A stretch of DNA of 64,000 bases from Candidatus Porifericomitales bacterium. Its GTDB lineage: Bacteria > Pseudomonadota > Gammaproteobacteria > CBDEFV01. The notes beneath the pieces are model-generated. The model searched no databases and had not been told where the DNA came from. It was given only the letters and a program-made list of their open reading frames with translations. Within the stretch, counting starts at the first letter, position 1. Each line of letters begins with the position of its first letter. This document shows, piece by piece, positions 45,560-54,155 of the stretch. The position numbers and the translations under genes are program-made. The stretch spans positions 33,958-97,957 of the forward strand of contig CBDEFV010000002.1 in assembly GCA_965237735.1 (NCBI GenBank). The letters are read 5' to 3'.

Positions 45560-46432
45560 GTGGCCGCGAGATTGAAGTTGCCCGCCACCGATTACAAATA
45601 CCGGCGGGAGAACGGTAACTCCTGGTCGCTGATTGCGCCCCGGGCGGTGCGCCGTCTGAGCCGCGACCTGAAAAAGGTATATGGCCTGCTGGAGGCGAGC
45701 AACCCCCCTCGGGTGCCGGAGTCGGAGCGACTGTTGCGCGATATTCTCCACGAGCTCCCGGCCCATCTCGAGGCCCTGCTGCTGATGTCGCTGGTGCATC
45801 GGGCGCGGGGCAATGATCTCGAGGCCTATCTTTTCGCCAAGGAGGCCGTAGCTATCGGCTGGTCGGCCATGCCGGGCGATTTTGAAATAGGCAGCGATAT
45901 CCTGCCCTGGGATGGCGGCTGCAACCGCGATTTCCTCCGTGCCCAGCTGTGCTATGGCTCTGTTCTGGCGCAACTGGATTATTTCCTCGACGCCTACGAG
46001 AGCTTCACCGACCTGTTGCAACTCTGCCCGTCGGACGAGAGCGGCGCCCGCTACCACGCCATCGAAGTCGCCCTGAGCGCCAACAAGCCGCGGCTGGCCC
46101 TGAAGGTCATCGAATCCAGAGCCGACGACAGCGCCGACATGCGCTACAACCATGCCTTGGCCTGGCTGGCCGTCGGCCGGGTGGTCAGGGCGCGGGAGCT
46201 GCTTGAACCCGCGGTGCGCTCGCATCCGGCGATCGCCCGGGCGCTCCTGTCGCCGGGCTCGTCCTCTGCCTCCTCCAACCGCCCTGGCGCCTGGCCCCAG
46301 CCGTCGGAAGGCGATCCCCAGGCCTATGTCGCCCGTTTCGGCGAATTCTGGCAGAGCACCAAAGGGGCTAGGGTGCTGCTGGCCGCCACCCTCGAGGAGC
46401 CGCTCCTGGCCCGCTCCCCGAGCCGTGCCTGA
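45560..46432 (+). CDS. Hypothetical helical-repeat (TPR-like) protein
   Basis: Amphipathic helix pairs such as NRDFLRAQLCYG...LLQLCPSDESGARY and YNHALAWLAVG; no catalytic motif recognised. Confidence 0.6.
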   Translation: MAARLKLPATDYKYRRENGNSWSLIAPRAVRRLSRDLKKVYGLLEASNPPRVPESERLLRDILHELPAHLEALLLMSLVHRARGNDLEAYLFAKEAVAIGWSAMPGDFEIGSDILPWDGGCNRDFLRAQLCYGSVLAQLDYFLDAYESFTDLLQLCPSDESGARYHAIEVALSANKPRLALKVIESRADDSADMRYNHALAWLAVGRVVRARELLEPAVRSHPAIARALLSPGSSSASSNRPGAWPQPSEGDPQAYVARFGEFWQSTKGARVLLAATLEEPLLARSPSRA

Positions 46433-48146
46433 AGCCCTGCGCGAAAAAGGGTCCGAGGCTCGCGCAAAAATCGCGGCTACAGGGCCCTGGCCGAAGATTT
46501 CCCGAAGGAGGCAGGTATTTTTGTGGTTGGCGCTGGCCTGTTCGTCCATCCTCCTCATGTCGCGGGGCGGGCCTTACCAGGCCCTGGGTCTGGTCATGCC
46601 GGCGGCGCTCCTGATCGCCATCGAAACGGCCTTTCGGGGTCGCAGCTACGCCGATCCGGGCCCTCGCCATTCCAGTTTGAAGCCGCTGCTGTCGTTTTTT
46701 GCAGCGCTCTTCCTGTGCTATGCCCTGGCCGCCTTCACAGCCGGCGCCAGCCTGATTCACAGCGCCATTGATTTCGGCGGCATTCCGCGGCCCCTGGCCT
46801 ATCCTTTAGTGGCTGCGGGCCTCGGTCTCGAAGGGGCGGTTCTGCTCTTTCTTGCCTTTGTCCTGCCGGCCTGGCTGCTGCCGCGGCGCGGCGGCCTTGA
46901 CCTGCCAGCCCGCTGGCTGTGGGCGGCGACGGTCGATCTGTTTTTTCCCCGCTATATGTTTCAGTGGTCCTGGGGGGAGTGGATGCTCGAGCACCTCGAC
47001 TGGATCAGCCAGGCTGCGGATCTATTGGGCGGGCCCGGCCTCGGCACCATCGCTCTGGCCCCGGCCTTTGCCGTCCTGGCCCTCTGGCGTCGGTGGGGGA
47101 ATCGCCGGCAGGGCGACCAGAAGGAGAGTCCTTCGCCTCGCTACTGCGCGATGGCGGTCGGCGGAGCCGCGCTTCTCTGGGTCGCCGCCGCCGGCTACGG
47201 GGCGGTGCGCCTGTCGCAGCTGGATGCCGCTGCCGCGGGAGATGGCGGGATCGATTCCGCCGCCCCCAACCTGGTTGTGCTGCAGCCGAATTTTCCCGTT
47301 GGCGGCCCCCGACGGGCCAAGTTCAATGTCCTGATCGGGGACTCTGAGCAGGCCCTGAATCTGGTGCCGGCCGAGGCCCGGCGGCAGAGCATCCTCGTCT
47401 GGTCCGAATCGGTTTTTCCCTACACCCTTTCGGCGGCGTCCCGGGCCGCGCTCAAAAAATGGTCGCAGCGCTGGCAGGTCGAGATCCTGTTAGGCGCGAT
47501 CTCGGAGCCCACTGCCGCCAAGGGGCGGCGAATGCTGGCTGCCCTGTTTTCGCCGTCGGCGCCCGTGCAGGAGTACACCAAGGTGAGTCTGATTCCTTTT
47601 GGCGAATATGTGCCCCTCGCCACTGTCTGGCCTTCCTGGGGCCAGTGGTTTCGCCGCCATGTGGTGCATCTGACGGATTTTTCCGCCGGCGATGAGGCCG
47701 TGGTTTTTCAGGCTGCGGACGGCTGGAATTTTGCGCCCCTGCTCTGCTTTGACATCCAGCACCGCCACCTCGCCCGTCAGGCCGCGGGCCTGGGGGCCGA
47801 AGCCCTGCTGTTGCTGGCCAATCTGGTCTGGTTCGGCACCGAGGACGCCGAGTTCTGGATGGGGCGGGCAGCACGCTGGCGGGCGATCGAGAACCGTCTG
47901 CCAGTGCTCATGACTTCACAGAATGGCCCCACCCGGGCCTTCGATGCCGCCGGCCGCGAACTGGCCGGTTCCCTGCCGGCCAATGAACATGCCCTGGGGG
48001 TGCTGAGCCTGCCGCGGTCCGGCCTCGCCTCCGTCTACAGTCGATACGGTCCCTGGTTTGAAGGTACCCTGGCTGTCGGGGCCGCTTTGGCAGCGATTTT
48101 TACGTTTTTTGCCGCCGGCAGGCGAGACCGCGGTCGGGGCGGCTGA
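46426..48146 (+). CDS. lnt: Apolipoprotein N-acyltransferase
   Basis: GTG 46426; multi-TM N-terminus; nitrilase-fold triad regions WSES, YTKVSLIPFGEY, LLCFD; RAIEN. Confidence 0.85.
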
Positions 48147-48290
48147 TATTTTCCCGCTGAGGGCGAAAGCCGAAGAATTTTCTGTCTTTCAGCCTTTCGT
48201 CTGGATGCCTCCAGGCGTTAAATTGTTAATACCAGCTAGACTCTGGCTATTGGCTTCCTCCTGCAATTTTTCATCGACGCAGAGTCCCCC

Positions 48291-49949
48291 TTGTACCTAT
48301 ACGACCAGCACGATCAGCGCATCCTCAACGAGCGGGTAGCCCAGTTCCGCGACCAGACCCGCCGCTACCTGGCGGGTGAACTCAACGATGAGGAGTTCAA
48401 GCCGCTGCGCCTCATGAACGGGCTCTATATCCAGCTCCACGCCCCCATGCTGCGGGTGGCCATTCCCTACGGCCTCATGACGGCGGAGCAGGCGCGCACC
48501 CTGGCCACCATCGCCCGACGCTACGACAAAGGCTACGGTCACTTCACCACCCGGCAGAACATTCAGTTCAACTGGCCGCAGCTCGAGGACGTGCCGGATA
48601 TCCTCGAGGCTCTGGCGGCCGTCTCCATGCACGCGCTTCAGACCAGCGGCAACTGCATCCGCAACATCACCTGCGACCATCTTGCCGGCGTGGCCGAAGA
48701 CGAGATCGAGGATCCGCGCATCTGGTGCGAGGTTCTGCGCCAGTGGTCGACTCTCCATCCCGAGTTCAGCTACCTGCCGCGCAAATTCAAGATCGCCATC
48801 TCCGGAGCCGAGGGCAAGGATCGGGCGGCCTCGGAAGTGCACGACATCGGCCTGCACCTGAGGCGCGGTGACAACGGCGCCGTCGGCTTCTGCGTGCTCG
48901 TCGGCGGCGGCCTCGGCCGGACTCCGGTGATCGGAAAGGTCATCCGCGAGTTTTTGCCGCAGAGCGATTTTCTCTCCTACATGACGGCCATCCTGCGGGT
49001 ATACAACGAAGCGGGCCGGCGCGACAACATCTACAAGGCGCGCATCAAGATCCTCGTCAATGCCCTGGGGATCGAGGAGTTTCGCGATCAGGTCGAAAAG
49101 GAGTGGCAGCTGGTGCGGCAGGACTCCAGGCTCGAAGTCACCCCGAAACAGATCGACTGGGTACGGGAGCGATTTCCCCTGCCTCAGTGCGAGGCGGCTC
49201 CGCAGGCCGGGGTGGCCGAGGAGGACCTCGCCGACGGCGACTTTGCCCGCTGGTTGCGGCACAACACCGATGGCCACAAGGTGCCGGGCCACGCCATTGT
49301 CTACCTGTCGTTGAAGGCGCCCAAGGTGCCGCCGGGAGACATCTCCGCCGATCAACTCGACGCTGTGGCGGACATGGCCGAGCGCTACAGCTGTGGCGAG
49401 ATCCGCACGACCCACACCCAGAACCTGGTCTTTGCCCAGGTGCGGCGCGACCAGTTGGCGGCTCTCTGGCGGGAGCTGTCGGAGCAGGGTCTGGCGACGC
49501 CGAACATCGGTTCCCTGACCGACATGATCTGTTGTCCGGGGCTCGATTTCTGCTCGCTGGCCAACGCCGGCACTATCGGTATCGCCGAAGAGGTCAACAG
49601 GATGTTTGACGATCTCGACTACATCCACGACCTCGGCGATGTCCGCATCAACATCTCCGGCTGCATGAACGCCTGCGGCCACCATCACGTGGGCAACATA
49701 GGAGTGCTGGGCGTCGATAAGGACGGCGCCGAATGGTATCAGATCACCATCGGCGGCAGCTCGGGCACCGGTGCCCGCCTCGGCAAGGTCGTAGGTCCCT
49801 CGGTGCCGGCCGCCCAGTTGGTGCCGACTCTGGCGCAGATTCTGCAGGTCTACCGCGAGGGCCGGGAACCGGAGGAAAGTTTTGTCGATTTTGTCCACCG
49901 GGTTGGAGTCGCTCTGTTCAAGCAGAGTATATATGGCAGTCGTCACTAA
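48291..49949 (+). CDS. cysI: Sulfite/nitrite reductase, siroheme-[4Fe-4S] hemoprotein subunit
   Basis: HFTTRQNIQ, TSGNCIRN, LPRKFKIA, CPGLDFC, ISGCMNACG. Confidence 0.88.
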   Translation: MYLYDQHDQRILNERVAQFRDQTRRYLAGELNDEEFKPLRLMNGLYIQLHAPMLRVAIPYGLMTAEQARTLATIARRYDKGYGHFTTRQNIQFNWPQLEDVPDILEALAAVSMHALQTSGNCIRNITCDHLAGVAEDEIEDPRIWCEVLRQWSTLHPEFSYLPRKFKIAISGAEGKDRAASEVHDIGLHLRRGDNGAVGFCVLVGGGLGRTPVIGKVIREFLPQSDFLSYMTAILRVYNEAGRRDNIYKARIKILVNALGIEEFRDQVEKEWQLVRQDSRLEVTPKQIDWVRERFPLPQCEAAPQAGVAEEDLADGDFARWLRHNTDGHKVPGHAIVYLSLKAPKVPPGDISADQLDAVADMAERYSCGEIRTTHTQNLVFAQVRRDQLAALWRELSEQGLATPNIGSLTDMICCPGLDFCSLANAGTIGIAEEVNRMFDDLDYIHDLGDVRINISGCMNACGHHHVGNIGVLGVDKDGAEWYQITIGGSSGTGARLGKVVGPSVPAAQLVPTLAQILQVYREGREPEESFVDFVHRVGVALFKQSIYGSRH

Positions 49950-50460
49950 AGAAGGGCGGCTCCTGACGGTGGCTGAGGATCCGTGGGTGCGCGTCTCTTC
50001 TCTGGAGGAGGCCGGGCCGGGTGCGAAGGTGTGGCCGATTGAGCTCTACTTGGAAAAGCGTCCGCAGATTCTGGCCCTCGGCGGGTCTCGAGGGCTGGCC
50101 ATACCCAGCGGCAGGGGGCTCGATGAGTGGCGGCATCTGGTGGCCGAAGTCGACATGATCTTTCTCGACTTTGAGCAGTTCCGCGATGGCCGCCACTACA
50201 GTCTGGCGCGGCGTCTGCGCGAGCAGCTCGGCTACGGGGGGGGCCTGCGCGCCTGCGGCGAGGTTGTGCCCGATCAGTTGTTTTTTCTCGCCCGCTGCGG
50301 CTTTGATTCCTTTGAGTTGTCGCCCGCAGTCGCGACTCAGGCGCAGAACTGTCTCCGACCCTTTTCCGCCGTCTATCAGGCGGCCGGCGACGAGGCCGAG
50401 CCCCTGTGGATTCGGCGCCTCAGTGAAAGCGGCGGAAAAGAGAAGCTGACGAAAAGTTAA
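49933..50460 (+). CDS. DUF934 protein (sulfite reductase partner)
   Basis: FRDGRHYSLARRLR, LRACGEVVPDQ, RCGFDSF, YQAA; overlaps the reductase stop. Confidence 0.88.
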   Translation: MAVVTKEGRLLTVAEDPWVRVSSLEEAGPGAKVWPIELYLEKRPQILALGGSRGLAIPSGRGLDEWRHLVAEVDMIFLDFEQFRDGRHYSLARRLREQLGYGGGLRACGEVVPDQLFFLARCGFDSFELSPAVATQAQNCLRPFSAVYQAAGDEAEPLWIRRLSESGGKEKLTKS

Positions 50461-50579
50461 TTTCGCTTTAATTTCCGGGTTTTTCAGATTGAAGACCCAG
50501 CTTTGCTCTATCATGTAAACATTGCGAATCATAAAATCCGCACCCTCTCCATCTTATCCATTAACCTTCTGATTAAGAG

Positions 50580-51131
50580 ATGAAATTGACAGACGAAACG
50601 ACAGAACCCTTAGCACAAATTGAAGACAACATCGACTCGGATGACGAACTTTTTGAAGAGAGCGCTGAAGACTTCGACGCTGAGCTGGACCCAGACGATC
50701 CCTCCGACAAAATTCCCACGGCAGGCGAGGTCCAGAACCTGCAAAACCAATACCTTAACATCCTCCGCAAAGAGAAAGTTCCAGTTCTGGTCTATCTCGT
50801 CAACGGCGTCAAGCTTCAGGGTATGGTCGAATCCTTTGACCAGTATGTGGTCCTGCTGCGCAACAGCTCGAGCCAGATGATCTACAAGCACGCCATTTCG
50901 ACCATAGTGCCGATTCAACGTGGAGGCTATCCGGATCGTCACGATCCCCGCAGCGGCCCTGAACCCCGTGGCGGAGGCTATGGCGGCTACCCTGGAGGAG
51001 GCGATTACGGCGGTGGCGGCTACGGCGCCCGCAGCAAGTACCGCCCCGCCCCCGGCGGAGCTCGGCCCCGTGAAGACTCCCGCAGCAGCCGCTGGCGTCC
51101 GGGCGGCTACGAGGACGAAAACGAAGGTTAG
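50580..51131 (+). CDS. hfq: RNA chaperone Hfq with long N- and C-terminal low-complexity extensions
   Basis: Core [44 protein letters not shown]; upstream of hflX. Confidence 0.95.
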
Positions 51132-51246
51132 CCCTTCTCGCCGCCGCCCCGATCTGCCTCTGACGGCGGACCGGTCGGCAGGATGCGGGGGCAGCGGTGG
51201 ACTGCTGTCGTCGCATACGACTCCTGCGCCCTCGGCGCGGGGGCGA

Positions 51247-52674
51247 CTGAAGGCCAGCGCTCTTGAGACCCCCCTCGCCGGCGCCAGGCTGCTGGTGGTG
51301 GGGCTGACAGTCGCTGCCCGGCCCGGCCCTGACATGGCTGAGCTGGCGTTGCTGGCCCGGGCGGCTGGAGCTGAAGTCGGCGGTTGCCTGCCGGTGTCGC
51401 TGCGCGCGGTCGAGGCCCACGCCTACCTGGGCTCTGGCAAGGTCGCCGAACTCAGAGAACGCGTCGCATCCGAGGGCGTTGACGGCATCTTCCTCGGCTG
51501 CCGCCTGAGCCCGTCCCAGCAGCGCAATCTGGAGCGTGATCTGGGGGTGGCAGTGTTTGACCACCCCGTCCTGATTCTGGAAATTTTTGCCCAGCGTGCG
51601 CGGTCCTTCGAAGGCAAGCTGCAGGTCGAACTCGCCCGCCTGAACTATCTCTCTTCGCGCCTGGTCCGCGGCTGGACTCACCTCGAGCGCCAGAGCGGCG
51701 GCATCGGCCTGCGTTCGGGTCCAGGGGAATCGCAGCTGGAGGTGGACCGTAGAGTGCTCGCCACCCGCATCCGCCGCATCCGTAAGCGGCTCGGCATGGT
51801 CGAACGCAACCGCGAACTCGGTCGTGGCAGCCGCAGCGAAATGCCGACTGCAGCTCTGGTTGGCTACACCAATTCCGGCAAATCAACCCTGTTCAATGCC
51901 CTGACAGAGGCGAGGGCCTACACCTCCAGCCGCGTCTTCGCCACGCTCGACACGGTCGTACGCCGGGTAGAACTTCAGGGCCACAATCTTTTGCTGATCG
52001 ACACTGTGGGCTTTATTTCGGCGCTGCCGCCAGAGTTGATCGATGCTTTCAAAGCCACTCTGCGCGAGGCCTCGGAGGCCGACCTGCTGCTTCATGTCGT
52101 CGACTTTTCCGACCCCGAATGGCGCGAGCGGGTGGAGGTTACGGAGAAGGTGCTGGCCGACCTCGGAGCCGACCAGATTCCCTGTATCCAAGTGCTGAAC
52201 AAAATCGACAGACTAAAAGAGCCTCAGGAGCAGGGAGAAGACAGGGAGCCTCAGGTACGTGGAGACCGCTCCCGCGCCAGCAAGCGGCGAGTCAGGATCT
52301 CGGCCCGTACCGGCGCCGGCCTCGATCAGTTGCGCTCCCTGCTGCAGGATACTTTTGCAGACGAGCGCCTGAGCGGTCGGCTGTCGCTCCCCCCCAGCCA
52401 GGGTTGGCTGCGGGCGCGCCTCTACGGGCTCAAGGCCGTGCGGGCTGAAGAAGTGCGCGATGACGGCGGCTCGGTGCTGACTCTCGACATCGGTCGGCGG
52501 CAGTGGGCCCTGCTGCGGGCCCAGTTGAACCTGAAGGAGTCGGAATCAATGGAGATCGACAGTCTCGAACAGCGACAGGAGGGCCGGGGGCAAGCTACGC
52601 CCTCAGACGCCGGCCCGGTGCCTGAGGAGAGTCCCGACCAGGGCCCGATTGCCGTTGTCAGTCGCGTCGGCTGA
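51247..52674 (+). CDS. hflX: GTPase HflX (start uncertain)
   Basis: LSPSQQRNLE, GPGESQLE, GYTNSGKST, FATLD, DTVGF, NKID. Confidence 0.93.
   Translation: MKASALETPLAGARLLVVGLTVAARPGPDMAELALLARAAGAEVGGCLPVSLRAVEAHAYLGSGKVAELRERVASEGVDGIFLGCRLSPSQQRNLERDLGVAVFDHPVLILEIFAQRARSFEGKLQVELARLNYLSSRLVRGWTHLERQSGGIGLRSGPGESQLEVDRRVLATRIRRIRKRLGMVERNRELGRGSRSEMPTAALVGYTNSGKSTLFNALTEARAYTSSRVFATLDTVVRRVELQGHNLLLIDTVGFISALPPELIDAFKATLREASEADLLLHVVDFSDPEWRERVEVTEKVLADLGADQIPCIQVLNKIDRLKEPQEQGEDREPQVRGDRSRASKRRVRISARTGAGLDQLRSLLQDTFADERLSGRLSLPPSQGWLRARLYGLKAVRAEEVRDDGGSVLTLDIGRRQWALLRAQLNLKESESMEIDSLEQRQEGRGQATPSDAGPVPEESPDQGPIAVVSRVG
52219..52272. repeat. Imperfect 27-bp tandem duplication inside hflX
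   Basis: GAGCCTCAGG...GGAGA occurs at 52219 and 52246; encodes EPQEQGEDR/EPQVRGDRS. Confidence 0.7.
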
Positions 52675-52733: not shown

Positions 52734-52928
52734 TAGCATTTGTCCGTCCAGAGGTTCTCCTCGCGGTCGATGTCGAGGGTTTATTCTTTGCCGCTCAACC
52801 TGGACGGCGATGTCTGATCCCCTGAATCGACCCGTCCGAACTACTGAAAACTTTTTCAGCGCGGTTACTTTCCCCCGGTACCCGCTCCGCAGCCCACCAC
52901 CACCTGTGCTTCCAAGCCACATTGTTTG

Positions 52929-54155
52929 ATGACTGAAGACATGCCTGTCAACGCCGGCAACGCCCAGGCCAGGCCCGAACCTCTCAGGAGAGAGGACCGT
53001 GACCGGTGGAGCGGCGGTAATGGCAGGGGCGATGGCCCGCCGGACCTCGAAGACCTGTTTCGTCAGTTGCGGGATAAATTCGCCGGCGGCAAATTTTCCC
53101 GTGGTCGCGGCAAAGCATCCAGTAAAGGACCGAGCGGAGGAGGCAGTGAAAAGCCCCTGCTCCTGGGGCTCCTGCTGCTGTTGCTCGGCTTTGTCGCCTA
53201 CAGCAGCATTTTCACGGTCCAGACCGGTGAGCGGGCTGTCATTACCCAGTTCGGCCGCTATGTGCGCACCGCCGAACCGGGCCTGAATTTCCGCCTTCCC
53301 TGGCCGGTCGAGGAGCATGACACCGTCAATATCGACGGCGTCCGCGAGATCTCGCTGAAAGGGCAGGCGGTTCTTACCAGCGACGAGAACATCGTTGTCG
53401 TCGATATGGGAGTGCAGTACAACATCAAGGATGCGGCCAACTATCTCTTCCTCACCCGCGGCCCTGACGAGACCTTGCAGAATGCGGTTGAAAGCGTTTT
53501 CCGCGAGATCTTCGGCAAGAACAACATGGATTTCATCATCTTCGAGGGGCGTGAAATCATGGCCGACCAGGTGCGCGAGCAGGCGCAGACGATTCTCGAC
53601 AACTACGGCACCGGCCTCAATGTGTTGACCGTCAACATGGAGCGGGCTCAGCCGCCGGACGAAGTCCAGGCGGCCTTCTCCGACGCCATCAGCGCCCGCG
53701 AGGACATGCAGCGCTACATCAATGAGGCCGAAGCCTACGCCAACGAGATCGTGCCGCGTGCCCGCGGCGACGGCCGGCGCGTCATCGAAGAGGCCAATGC
53801 CTATCGGACGCGCATCGTTAAAAGTGCCATCGGCGAGGCCAGCCGTTTCAGCGCCCTCTACGACGAGTATAAAAAATCGCCCCGGGTCGTGCGCGACCGC
53901 CTCTACATTGAAACCATGGAGCGGCTCTTCGCCGAGACCGGCAAAGTCATCATCGACAACGGCGGCGGAGAGGGCGGACAGAGCCTTTTCTACGTACCCC
54001 TCGATCGTCTGATTCAACAGCGTGCGGCCGGCGTCGGCTCGCAACGGCGGCCGGGAGACCTGACGCCGCCCGGCAACCAGCCGGATGAAATCTACGAACC
54101 TTCGGAGGCGTCCAGCGATGCCAACCGCGGTTCGCGCAGCCGGGGCCGTCAATGA
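52929..54155 (+). CDS. hflK: FtsH modulator HflK
   Basis: GPPDLEDLF, FGRYVR..PGLNFRLPWP, LTSDENIV, AQPPDEVQAAF, EAEAYAN. Confidence 0.96.
   Translation: MTEDMPVNAGNAQARPEPLRREDRDRWSGGNGRGDGPPDLEDLFRQLRDKFAGGKFSRGRGKASSKGPSGGGSEKPLLLGLLLLLLGFVAYSSIFTVQTGERAVITQFGRYVRTAEPGLNFRLPWPVEEHDTVNIDGVREISLKGQAVLTSDENIVVVDMGVQYNIKDAANYLFLTRGPDETLQNAVESVFREIFGKNNMDFIIFEGREIMADQVREQAQTILDNYGTGLNVLTVNMERAQPPDEVQAAFSDAISAREDMQRYINEAEAYANEIVPRARGDGRRVIEEANAYRTRIVKSAIGEASRFSALYDEYKKSPRVVRDRLYIETMERLFAETGKVIIDNGGGEGGQSLFYVPLDRLIQQRAAGVGSQRRPGDLTPPGNQPDEIYEPSEASSDANRGSRSRGRQ

What the first reader, a model, noticed from the sequence alone, without database searches (positions are those of the whole stretch)
50580..51131. 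Tripartite Hfq: acidic N-terminal arm, Sm core, RGG/YGG prion-like tail
Seen: 183 aa. The first 51 aa contain 20 Asp/Glu, and there is no in-frame ATG or GTG closer to the core. The 72-aa tail has 21 Gly, 11 Arg and 7 Tyr ([24 protein letters not shown]) and ends in an acidic tip YEDENEG. Known: typical Hfq has only a few N-terminal residues; acidic C-terminal tips autoregulate the basic rim; Gly-rich tails occur in Acinetobacter; RGG/Tyr-Gly domains drive condensates in FET/hnRNP proteins. Inference: a hexamer with six RNA-mimic acidic arms and six sticker-rich tails could form self-regulated RNP condensates. I know of no described Hfq with this combination.
Basis: partly seen in the sequence, partly recalled or inferred. 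Interest (0 to 1): 0.78.

Follow-up and report, generated by a model that had tools for sequence, protein, structure and literature searches.

The report
Hfq with acidic N-terminal arm
This is the only copy of the RNA-chaperone gene hfq in an uncultured gammaproteobacterium, and its otherwise normal core carries a conserved, very acidic 47-residue front arm seen in no other Hfq examined, plus a floppy glycine/arginine/tyrosine tail; this makes it a natural test case for how charged tails tune Hfq.

Summary
Window 50580-51131 (+) is a 183-aa ORF with exactly the reported composition. Residues 48-113 are a canonical Hfq Sm core that passes both NCBIfam Hfq equivalog cut-offs. The gene sits in an hfq-hflX-hflK-hflC operon and is the genome's only hfq.

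The 47-aa acidic arm (19 D/E, net charge -17) is probably translated:
- the ATG is conserved in all four clade sequences;
- arm indels are in frame;
- arm dN/dS is 0.27-0.34;
- the other two frames contain stops;
- three of the four sequences have no canonical start near the core.

Neither the arm nor the tail has a sequence relative outside one genus-level clade. That holds for 5.8 billion proteins, 1.84 billion representatives and 241 million metagenome records. About 370 other Hfq sequences inspected have canonical N-termini or non-acidic miscalled ones.

The tail is less unusual. Long Gly-rich tails with Arg, aromatic residues and acidic tips recur in other Hfqs. "RGG/prion-like" overstates it: it has two RGG triplets, no di-RGG box, 31% charged residues and almost no Q/N.

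My reading is a working Hfq whose acidic arm extends the known acidic-tip autoinhibition. That mechanism, and condensate formation, are untested inferences. I class it as a new variant of a known kind, of moderate interest.

The parts
50580..51131 (+). hfq coding sequence, 183 codons plus TAG stop
   Evidence: ORF list and sequence. Pfam PF17209 E 1e-27. NCBIfam equivalogs NF001602 (113.1 bits, cut-off 95) and TIGR02383 (97.5 bits, cut-off 61.7). It is the only hfq match in the genome.
50580..50720 (+). Acidic N-terminal arm, codons 1-47 (19 D/E, 2 K/R, net charge -17). Invariant blocks [12 protein letters not shown] and DPSDKIP.
   Evidence: Composition. Conservation in four sequences. dN/dS 0.27-0.34 and in-frame indels. 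AF2 pLDDT 48-60 with no secondary structure.
50721..50918 (+). Sm core, codons 48-113: N-terminal helix 48-64 and five strands. Proximal, distal and rim residues are retained (Q55, Y72, K78, F86, Y89, Y102, K103, H104; rim R63, K64, K66, R94).
   Evidence: AF2 pLDDT 84-94. Alignments to PDB Hfq chains 8p91 and 1u1s. Alignment A2.
50919..51107 (+). Gly/Arg/Pro/Tyr-rich disordered tail, codons 114-176
   Evidence: Composition. pLDDT below 50 over residues 119-178. dN/dS 0.25-0.45 with many in-frame indels, while composition is conserved (G 21-23, R 11-14, Y 6-8).
51108..51128 (+). Acidic C-terminal tip YEDENEG, codons 177-183
   Evidence: Conserved as [14 protein letters not shown] and YDDENES in the three intact relatives.
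50574..50576 (+). In-frame TAA two codons upstream of the ATG. It fixes the ATG as the first possible start.
50470..50579 (+). AT-rich (37-43% GC in a 63% GC genome), weakly structured leader and probable promoter region. It is conserved among the four clade sequences and has only a weak SD-like AAGAG directly before the ATG.
   Evidence: Alignment A1. The -30..+30 window around the ATG folds at -4.5 kcal/mol, against a background of -18.5 +/- 6.1; only 1.25% of windows are as weakly structured. No sigma-70 consensus match.
51049..51053 (+). C5 run in the tail. A 6x long-read assembly of the same organism has C6 here, which yields the truncated 164-aa call P0001.
   Evidence: Relatives keep the frame through to the conserved tip.
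51238..52674 (+). hflX, the downstream operon partner. The start is uncertain: relatives use TTG where the window has CTG.
   Evidence: Pfam GTP-bdg_N, GTP-bdg_M and MMR_HSR1. Alignment A5.
52926..54155 (+). hflK (Band_7 family), followed by hflC in the relatives
   Evidence: ORF. Gene tables of L101-L103.

Best explanation
This is the organism's single, functional Hfq, translated from the ATG at 50580. It is a canonical Sm/Hfq ring core with all three RNA-binding surfaces intact, flanked by two lineage-specific disordered regions that are under purifying selection.

Shown: gene identity, operon context, conservation of the start codon, coding-type evolution of the arm and the tail, predicted disorder, and restriction of both extensions to one genus-level clade.

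Inferred mechanism: the six 47-residue arms carry about -17 charge each, roughly -100 per hexamer. They leave the ring at the N-terminal helices on the proximal face, next to the rim. There they act as tethered polyanions that compete with RNA for the basic rim (R63, K64, K66, R94), the proximal face and the Arg-rich tails. This would be a much stronger version of the acidic-tip autoinhibition shown for E. coli and Caulobacter Hfq, admitting only high-affinity RNAs and speeding the release of RNA duplexes. The Gly/Arg/Tyr tail would add flexible, low-specificity RNA contacts and multivalent tail-arm and tail-tail contacts. Its own acidic tip keeps the classical gate.
For: - Identity: Pfam and NCBIfam Hfq equivalogs score above their cut-offs. 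PDB Hfq chains match at E 1e-24 to 1e-26. The core residues are conserved. The order hfq-hflX-hflK-hflC is syntenic in all relatives. There is one hfq in a genome that is 97% complete.
- Arm is translated: the ATG is conserved in 4 of 4 sequences, including L102, where the gene caller chose an internal ATG. Arm indels are 6 and 3 nt, whereas the upstream non-coding stretch has runs of 1, 2, 3 and 4 nt. dN/dS is 0.27-0.34 at dS 0.41-0.64. Variable columns by codon position are 8/12/18, with a third-position excess at p = 0.04. The other two frames hold 1-6 stops in every sequence. The region around the ATG is among the least structured 1.25% of the window.
- Near-cognate start is unlikely: the SD-like GAGG eight nt before CTG54 is absent in L102, and only L101 has a GTG at the canonical position.
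- Disorder: the AF2 core has pLDDT above 90, the arm 48-60 and the tail below 50.
- Mechanistic precedent: acidic CTD tips dock on the basic rim and compete with RNA (PMC6561178, PMC9704730). [quoted passage not shown]
- Composition is conserved despite sequence and length changes in the tail.
Against:
- Conservation rests on only four sequences from one shallow clade (sulfite reductase 90-92% identical). The dN/dS and codon-position tests therefore have little power.
- The SD before the ATG is weak (AAGAG at zero spacing).
- Some conservation of the arm's DNA could reflect RNA-level constraints such as hfq autoregulation.
- The autoinhibition role is reasoned from charge and geometry only. 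No multimer model or binding data were available.
- The invariant hydrophobic residues (L24, F25, F32) fit a specific docking motif at least as well as bulk-charge mimicry.
Confidence: 0.6

Rival explanations
1. The hexamer is a condensate scaffold: about 42 Tyr and 66 Arg in its tails act as stickers and six polyanionic arms act as built-in counter-ions. Hfq would then form self-limiting RNP droplets by complex coacervation between arms and tails of different hexamers.
For: - The tail is disordered and rich in Gly, Arg and Tyr, and this composition is conserved.
- Arm and tail carry opposite local charge.
- E. coli Hfq is already linked to condensates with polyphosphate and DNA through its C-terminal region (PMC10954037, PMC13278351).
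- Sm-fold proteins with RGG domains drive RNP granules in eukaryotes (SCD6, PMC3694794).
Against: - The tail is short (70 aa) and has only two RGG and two [GS]Y[GS] motifs.
- It is 31% charged, nearly neutral overall (+2) and Q/N-poor, so it is not prion-like.
- The protein's net charge of -13 (pI 4.6) should favour solubility and repulsion.
- No experiment or predictor was available here.
Confidence: 0.2
2. The arm is a partner-docking peptide and not an RNA mimic. The invariant acidic-hydrophobic block [10 protein letters not shown] would work like the acidic-hydrophobic C-terminal tip of bacterial SSB. It would recruit a basic-pocket partner, such as an RNase, a helicase, a ribosomal protein or HflX, to Hfq-bound RNA.
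For: - Two blocks are invariant ([12 protein letters not shown] and DPSDKIP), and the hydrophobic residues L24, F25 and F32 are strictly conserved inside an otherwise variable acidic stretch.
- This pattern is typical of short linear motifs.
- SSB-tip-like logic is established (my own knowledge).
Against: - No candidate partner was identified.
- With only four close sequences, invariance is weak evidence.
- No homologous motif occurs elsewhere: the only genome hit lies inside a folded domain and is a chance match.
Confidence: 0.15
3. The arm is not part of the protein. Translation would start at a near-cognate codon next to the core (CTG54, ATT45 or ACG47; GTG48 in L101). The 140 nt upstream would be a conserved 5' leader that happens to stay open.
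For: - The SD before the ATG is weak.
- A GAGG lies eight nt before CTG54 in three of four sequences.
- L101 has a GTG exactly at the canonical start position.
- The region around CTG54 is also weakly structured (-7.4 kcal/mol).
Against: - dN/dS is about 0.3, changes are in excess at third positions, and indels are in frame, unlike the true non-coding stretch upstream.
- The ATG is conserved in all four sequences.
- The frame is open in all four, while the other two frames contain stops.
- The GAGG and the GTG are each missing in at least one relative.
- CTG, ATT and ACG are very poor bacterial starts (my own knowledge).
Confidence: 0.1
4. Both extensions are translated but are nearly neutral, lineage-specific disordered add-ons with no specific role. 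They would be tolerated because the core still works.
For: - They are restricted to one tiny clade.
- The tails evolve fast, with many indels.
- An earlier unverified note, e1-1160722, reports dense tandem duplications at gene ends in this genome.
Against: - dN/dS of 0.25-0.45 is well below 1.
- The arm has invariant blocks and the tip is invariant.
- Tail composition is held constant through indels.
- No tandem repeat occurs in or around the gene.
Confidence: 0.1

Closest known systems
Canonical proteobacterial Hfq with an acidic C-terminal tip (E. coli Hfq, -DSEETE; Caulobacter crescentus Hfq, -DADD, PDB 6gwk; PMC6561178, PMC9704730)
   Same: The Sm core passes the equivalog thresholds and keeps the proximal, distal and rim residues. 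The operon with hflX, hflK and hflC is the same. The C-terminal domain is disordered and ends in an acidic tip (YEDENEG).
   Different: The canonical N-terminal extension is about 4 residues; here it is 47 residues with 19 D/E. The negative charge available to compete with RNA is several-fold larger and is tethered at the opposite terminus. The rim reads R-K-E-K plus R94, against R-R-E-R plus K47 in E. coli.
Acinetobacter/Moraxellaceae Hfq with a long Gly-rich 'GGFGGQ' C-terminal domain and a dense acidic tip (PMC11617691, PMC5663733), and unnamed Hfq representatives with R/G/F-rich tails (P0248, P0168, P0130, P0206, P0121, P0124)
   Same: A long, disordered, Gly-rich tail with aromatic residues ends in an acidic tip. 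Composition is conserved more than sequence.
   Different: The tail here is not a regular repeat (no tandem repeat). It uses Tyr where those tails use Phe, and it is rich in Arg and Pro with interspersed acids. It has no sequence relative outside the clade. None of those proteins has an acidic N-terminal arm.
Eukaryotic Sm-fold proteins with RG/RGG tails (LSm4, SmD1, SmD3; Scd6/SCD6 with an LSm domain plus an RGG domain, PMC3694794, PMC6693564)
   Same: An Sm ring subunit is fused to an Arg/Gly-rich disordered C-terminal region, which in eukaryotes promotes RNP granule assembly. The resemblance is functional and convergent.
   Different: The tails share no homology. This tail has only 1-2 RGG triplets and no di-RGG or tri-RGG box. 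Bacteria are not known to methylate such tails. No eukaryotic example pairs the tail with a polyacidic N-terminal arm.
Autoinhibitory acidic disordered tails of nucleic-acid-binding proteins (the bacterial SSB C-terminal tip, the HMGB1 acidic tail; my own knowledge)
   Same: A tethered polyanion with a few conserved hydrophobic residues could both mask the protein's own basic nucleic-acid-binding surface and dock partners.
   Different: The fold families are unrelated, and nothing was tested here.

Membership tests
Hfq (Pfam PF17209; NCBIfam TIGR02383 / NF001602 equivalogs) | Profile match above the curated cut-off | tested here: met
   PF17209 scores 96 bits (cut-off 27). NF001602 scores 113.1 bits (cut-off 95) and TIGR02383 scores 97.5 bits (cut-off 61.7).
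Hfq (Pfam PF17209; NCBIfam TIGR02383 / NF001602 equivalogs) | Sm fold: N-terminal helix plus a five-stranded bent sheet, with the Sm2 motif YKHAIST | tested here: met
   The AF2 model has helix 48-64 and strands 68-73, 78-86, 90-94, 99-102 and 106-111 at pLDDT 84-94. YKHAIST lies at residues 102-108.
Hfq (Pfam PF17209; NCBIfam TIGR02383 / NF001602 equivalogs) | RNA-binding residues of the proximal face (Q8, F42, K56, H57), the distal face (Y25, G29, I30, K31) and the basic rim (R16, R17, R19, K47), in E. coli numbering | tested here: met
   With an offset of 47: Q55, Y89, K103, H104; Y72, G76, V77, K78; rim R63, K64, K66, R94. The rim has two Arg where E. coli has three.
Hfq (Pfam PF17209; NCBIfam TIGR02383 / NF001602 equivalogs) | Genomic context hfq-hflX-hflK-hflC | tested here: met
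   The usual upstream miaA is replaced by lnt, a NIR_SIR gene and a DUF934 gene.
Hfq (Pfam PF17209; NCBIfam TIGR02383 / NF001602 equivalogs) | Homohexameric ring that binds sRNA and mRNA | not testable with these tools
   Only monomer prediction was available.
Hfq with an autoinhibitory acidic C-terminal tip | A cluster of acidic residues at the extreme C-terminus of a disordered C-terminal domain | tested here: met
   YEDENEG has 4 acidic residues among the last 6, and the tip is conserved in relatives.
Hfq with an autoinhibitory acidic C-terminal tip | The tip competes with RNA for the rim | not testable with these tools
   This needs binding and annealing assays.
RGG/RG-box RNA-binding domain (di-RGG or tri-RGG, spacing 0-4; definition recalled from Thandapani et al. 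2013) | At least two RGG (or RG) repeats spaced by 0-4 residues | tested here: not met
   The window has RGG at residues 114 and 130 only, and no di-RGG or di-RG box. L101 has one RGG. L102 has one RGG and one di-RG.
Prion-like / FUS-type low-complexity domain | A long, uncharged region rich in Q/N/S/G/Y with many [GS]Y[GS] motifs | tested here: not met
   The tail is 70-72 aa with 31% charged residues, 2 Q/N and two [GS]Y[GS] motifs. PLAAC itself was not available.

The most novel reading that the evidence does not exclude
A bacterial lineage has rebuilt its only Hfq into a charge-segregated, self-gated RNP scaffold. Six 47-residue polyanionic N-terminal arms would act as built-in RNA mimics that mask the ring and the Arg/Tyr-rich tails. 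Displacement of the arms by cognate RNA, polyphosphate or a change in salt would then free the tails to cross-link hexamers into condensates. This would be a switchable bacterial counterpart, by convergence, of eukaryotic LSm/RGG granule proteins. It would also be the first Hfq regulated from its N-terminus.
Probability: 0.15. Interest if true: 0.75.

Novelty: new variant of a known kind. Interest (0 to 1): 0.5.

Why it matters
Hfq is the central sRNA chaperone of Gram-negative bacteria. How its disordered, charged appendages set RNA selectivity and turnover is an active question. Published work treats the N-terminal extension as a stub of about four residues and places all autoregulation in the C-terminal tip.

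A natural Hfq with a conserved polyacidic N-terminal arm of net charge -17 and a basic Gly/Arg/Tyr tail offers a ready-made construct series: full-length, arm-deleted, tail-deleted and tip-deleted. With it, three questions can be tested in E. coli and in vitro:
- Is nucleic-acid mimicry dose-dependent?
- Does the point of tethering matter?
- Can opposite-charge disordered regions on one ring drive or suppress condensation?

Its value is limited by two facts. The host is uncultured, and the architecture is confined to a tiny clade.

Tried and rejected
I therefore have no transcript or read evidence for the start site.
- A scan of 241 million JGI metagenome records with arm-specific patterns found 517 pattern matches, but none encoded a relative.
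- Searches restricted to the arm and to the tail in 5.8 billion proteins returned only clade members.
- The genome-contig scan returned 80 loci, all with canonical Hfq. Apparent tblastn matches into the tail there (for example L003, L004, L010) run past the stop codon into GC-rich intergenic sequence and are compositional. The open frames end 15-25 residues after the core.
- A duplication origin for the arm or tail was rejected. There is no tandem repeat and no significant second copy in the genome. The one hit, on contig C1 at E 8.5e-4 without composition correction, lies inside a 909-aa folded protein and is a chance match.
- The sigma-70 promoter scan found nothing. I did not pursue sigma-32-like similarity in the conserved leader.
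- The long overlapping ORFs (50920..52674 + as called from its GTG, 50610..51335 - and 50809..51681 -) were set aside as GC-rich artefacts or as an over-extended hflX.
- The 164-aa version P0001 was rejected as the true product. It differs by one extra C in a homopolymer in a 6x long-read assembly and loses the tip that relatives conserve.
- Monomer AF2 cannot show whether the arm docks on the ring, so I used it only for the order/disorder profile.

Full report
**Observation.** Window 50580-51131 (+) is a 183-codon ORF.
- 20 Asp/Glu and 2 Lys/Arg in the first 51 residues;
- 21 Gly, 11 Arg and 7 Tyr in the last 72 residues;
- the tip YEDENEG.

An in-frame TAA lies two codons before the ATG. After the TTG at codon 3 there is no ATG, GTG or TTG before the core. 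The composition is specific to this gene. Among 7,055 ORFs of at least 90 aa in the 2.27-Mb, 63% GC genome, hfq alone has a 40-residue window with G>=12, R>=4 and Y>=4.

**Identity.**
- Residues 54-113 match Pfam Hfq (E 1e-27).
- The protein passes both NCBIfam Hfq equivalog cut-offs: NF001602 at 113.1 bits against 95, and TIGR02383 at 97.5 against 61.7.
- Solved Hfq structures from Pseudomonas, E. coli and others match at E 1e-24 to 1e-26. Their residue 5 aligns to query residue 51-52, so the protein has 46-47 residues more than a canonical N-terminus.
- With an offset of 47, the functional residues of E. coli Hfq are kept: proximal Q55, Y89, K103, H104; distal Y72, G76, V77, K78; rim R63, K64, K66 and R94.
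- AlphaFold2 on a 20-sequence alignment gives a confident Sm fold: helix 48-64 and five strands at pLDDT 84-94. The arm has no secondary structure (pLDDT 48-60), and residues 119-178 of the tail are below 50.
- Downstream lie hflX and hflK. In relatives the order is lnt, a NIR_SIR sulfite-reductase-like gene, DUF934, hfq, hflX, hflK, hflC, DUF2065.
- The genome is 97% complete and has a single hfq.

**Is the arm translated?** Three relatives carry the same architecture: P0002/L101, P0004/L102 and P0003/L103. The evidence for translation is:
- In the DNA alignment the ATG is conserved in all four sequences. In L102 the gene caller chose an internal ATG, but the upstream ATG is present and in frame.
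- Indels inside the arm are 6 and 3 nt. The non-coding stretch upstream has indel runs of 1, 2, 3 and 4 nt, and 39% of its columns vary, against 27% in the arm.
- Pairwise dN/dS in the arm is 0.27-0.34 at dS 0.41-0.64. The core gives 0.06-0.18 and the tail 0.25-0.45.
- Variable arm columns by codon position are 8/12/18, a third-position excess at p = 0.04.
- The other two frames contain 1-6 stops in every sequence.
- The 60 nt around the ATG are AT-rich and fold at only -4.5 kcal/mol. The window-wide mean is -18.5 +/- 6.1, and only 1.25% of windows are as weakly structured. This is typical of an initiation region.

Three points count against translation. The SD is weak (AAGAG abutting the ATG). 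A GAGG lies 8 nt before CTG54. L101 has a GTG exactly at the canonical position. However, the GAGG is absent in L102 and the GTG is absent in three of the four sequences. I put the chance that the arm is not translated at about 10%.

**How widespread is it?**
- An exhaustive phmmer search of 1.84 billion representatives gave 3,567 Hfq-like hits. Only one scored below 1e-30 (P0004, which stands for this clade). All others match the core alone at about 108 bits or less.
- Searches restricted to the arm and to the tail in 5.8 billion proteins returned only the clade.
- A pattern scan of 241 million metagenome records found no further arm.
- In 100 other gammaproteobacterial loci, an ATG lies 54-56 codons before the YKHAIST motif, which is the canonical N-terminus.
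- Among the 264 proteins listed by the two searches, many gene calls have 15-70 extra N-terminal residues. These are hydrophobic or basic and look like miscalled starts. None is acidic.
[quoted passage not shown] A full-text search for Hfq with 'N-terminal extension' and 'acidic' turned up no such protein.

There are caveats. I could inspect only 150 of the 3,567 representatives. Unverified earlier notes of this scan describe Hfq-like proteins with basic N-terminal arms and acidic tails in Acidobacteriota and in Legionella-like bacteria. N-terminal arms as such may therefore not be unique, although those have the opposite polarity. The clade here is also shallow: its sulfite-reductase neighbour is 90-92% identical across members. 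It sits in a lineage with no same-order relative among the held reference genomes.

**The tail.** It is disordered and rich in Gly, Arg, Pro and Tyr. Its composition is held constant through many in-frame indels (G 21-23, R 11-14, Y 6-8). The acidic tip is conserved.

It is not an RGG box and not prion-like by the usual criteria. It has two RGG triplets 16 residues apart, no di-RGG box, two [GS]Y[GS] motifs, 31% charged residues and two Q/N.

Long Gly-rich tails with Arg, aromatic residues and acidic tips occur in other Hfq representatives (P0248, P0168, P0130, P0206, P0121, P0124). Such a tail is also published for Acinetobacter (PMC11617691). The tail is therefore a new member of a known theme. 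The arm is the unusual part.

**Mechanism (inferred).** The N-terminal helices of Hfq lie on the proximal face next to the rim. Six arms of net charge -17 would place about 100 negative charges there, and the protein's pI is 4.6. In E. coli and Caulobacter, four or so acidic tip residues dock on the basic rim, compete with RNA, suppress non-specific annealing and speed product release (PMC6561178, PMC9704730).

The most economical reading is that the arm is a greatly enlarged, N-terminally tethered version of that gate. It would act on the rim, the proximal face and the Arg-rich tails. The tail would supply extra flexible RNA contacts.

The invariant blocks [12 protein letters not shown] and DPSDKIP, with the conserved L24, F25 and F32, leave room for a specific docking role, either on Hfq itself or on a partner. 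Arm and tail have opposite local charge, the hexamer offers about 42 Tyr and 66 Arg, and there are precedents for Hfq with polyphosphate (PMC10954037) and for eukaryotic LSm-RGG proteins (PMC3694794). The short, highly charged tail and the strongly negative net charge argue against strong self-association. Nothing here tests it.

**Assembly check.** A 6x long-read assembly of the same organism (L104) is identical over 900 nt except for one extra C in the run at 51049-51053. That extra base produces the truncated 164-aa call P0001. Relatives keep the frame through to the conserved tip, so the window's version is the credible one. L103, from a 2x assembly, has a similar frameshift in its tail.

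**Verdict.** This is a real Hfq with a conserved, probably translated polyacidic N-terminal arm that is so far unique, plus a Gly/Arg/Tyr tail of a recurring kind. I class it as a new variant of a known kind. Interest is moderate (0.5): it would surprise Hfq specialists and is readily testable by heterologous expression, but it is confined to a tiny uncultured clade and has no functional evidence yet.

Noticed in passing
window 51230-51300 (start region of hflX): Relatives L101 and L102 start hflX at a TTG about 120 nt after the hfq stop. The window, and the identical L104, have a spacer 5 nt shorter and CTG at that codon. No ATG, GTG or TTG lies in frame between 50920 (inside hfq) and about 51294. 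hflX here may therefore start at a non-canonical CTG or at the downstream GTG, which would remove part of the conserved N-terminus.
   Followed up: partly
window 51049-51053; L104:1501-1995: There is a homopolymer C5/C6 discrepancy between two assemblies of the same organism. The C6 version gives a truncated 164-aa Hfq without the acidic tip (P0001). It is probably a long-read homopolymer error. hflX was also not called on that contig.
   Followed up: yes
window 46152-50460: hfq is not preceded by miaA as in most Gammaproteobacteria. Instead it follows lnt (CN_hydrolase), a NIR_SIR sulfite/nitrite-reductase-like gene and a DUF934 gene. This order is conserved in all three relatives. The new upstream junction may be linked to the origin of the arm.
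   Followed up: partly
window 50470-50579: The leader is AT-rich (about 40% GC in a 63% GC genome) and conserved in the four clade sequences (…TTTTCAGATTGA…GCTTTGCTCTATCATGTAAA.ATTGCGAA.CATAAAA…). It has no sigma-70 consensus match. A TTGAA…CTATCAT arrangement vaguely recalls heat-shock promoters known upstream of E. coli hfq.
   Followed up: no
proteins P0248, P0168, P0130, P0206, P0121, P0124: Several unnamed Hfq representatives of 116-237 aa carry long tails rich in Gly, Arg and Phe/Tyr (for example RGF/GGF repeats and RGGGERGGERGGEH) that end in acidic tips. Arg/Gly/aromatic Hfq tails appear to have arisen repeatedly.
   Followed up: partly
genome contig C1:36722-36829 (-): A 909-aa ORF contains IDPDSDDEMFGEDLFPKDFIVDLDPPD, which is 47% identical to the Hfq arm over 36 residues. 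It lies inside a long ORF and looks like a chance match.
   Followed up: yes
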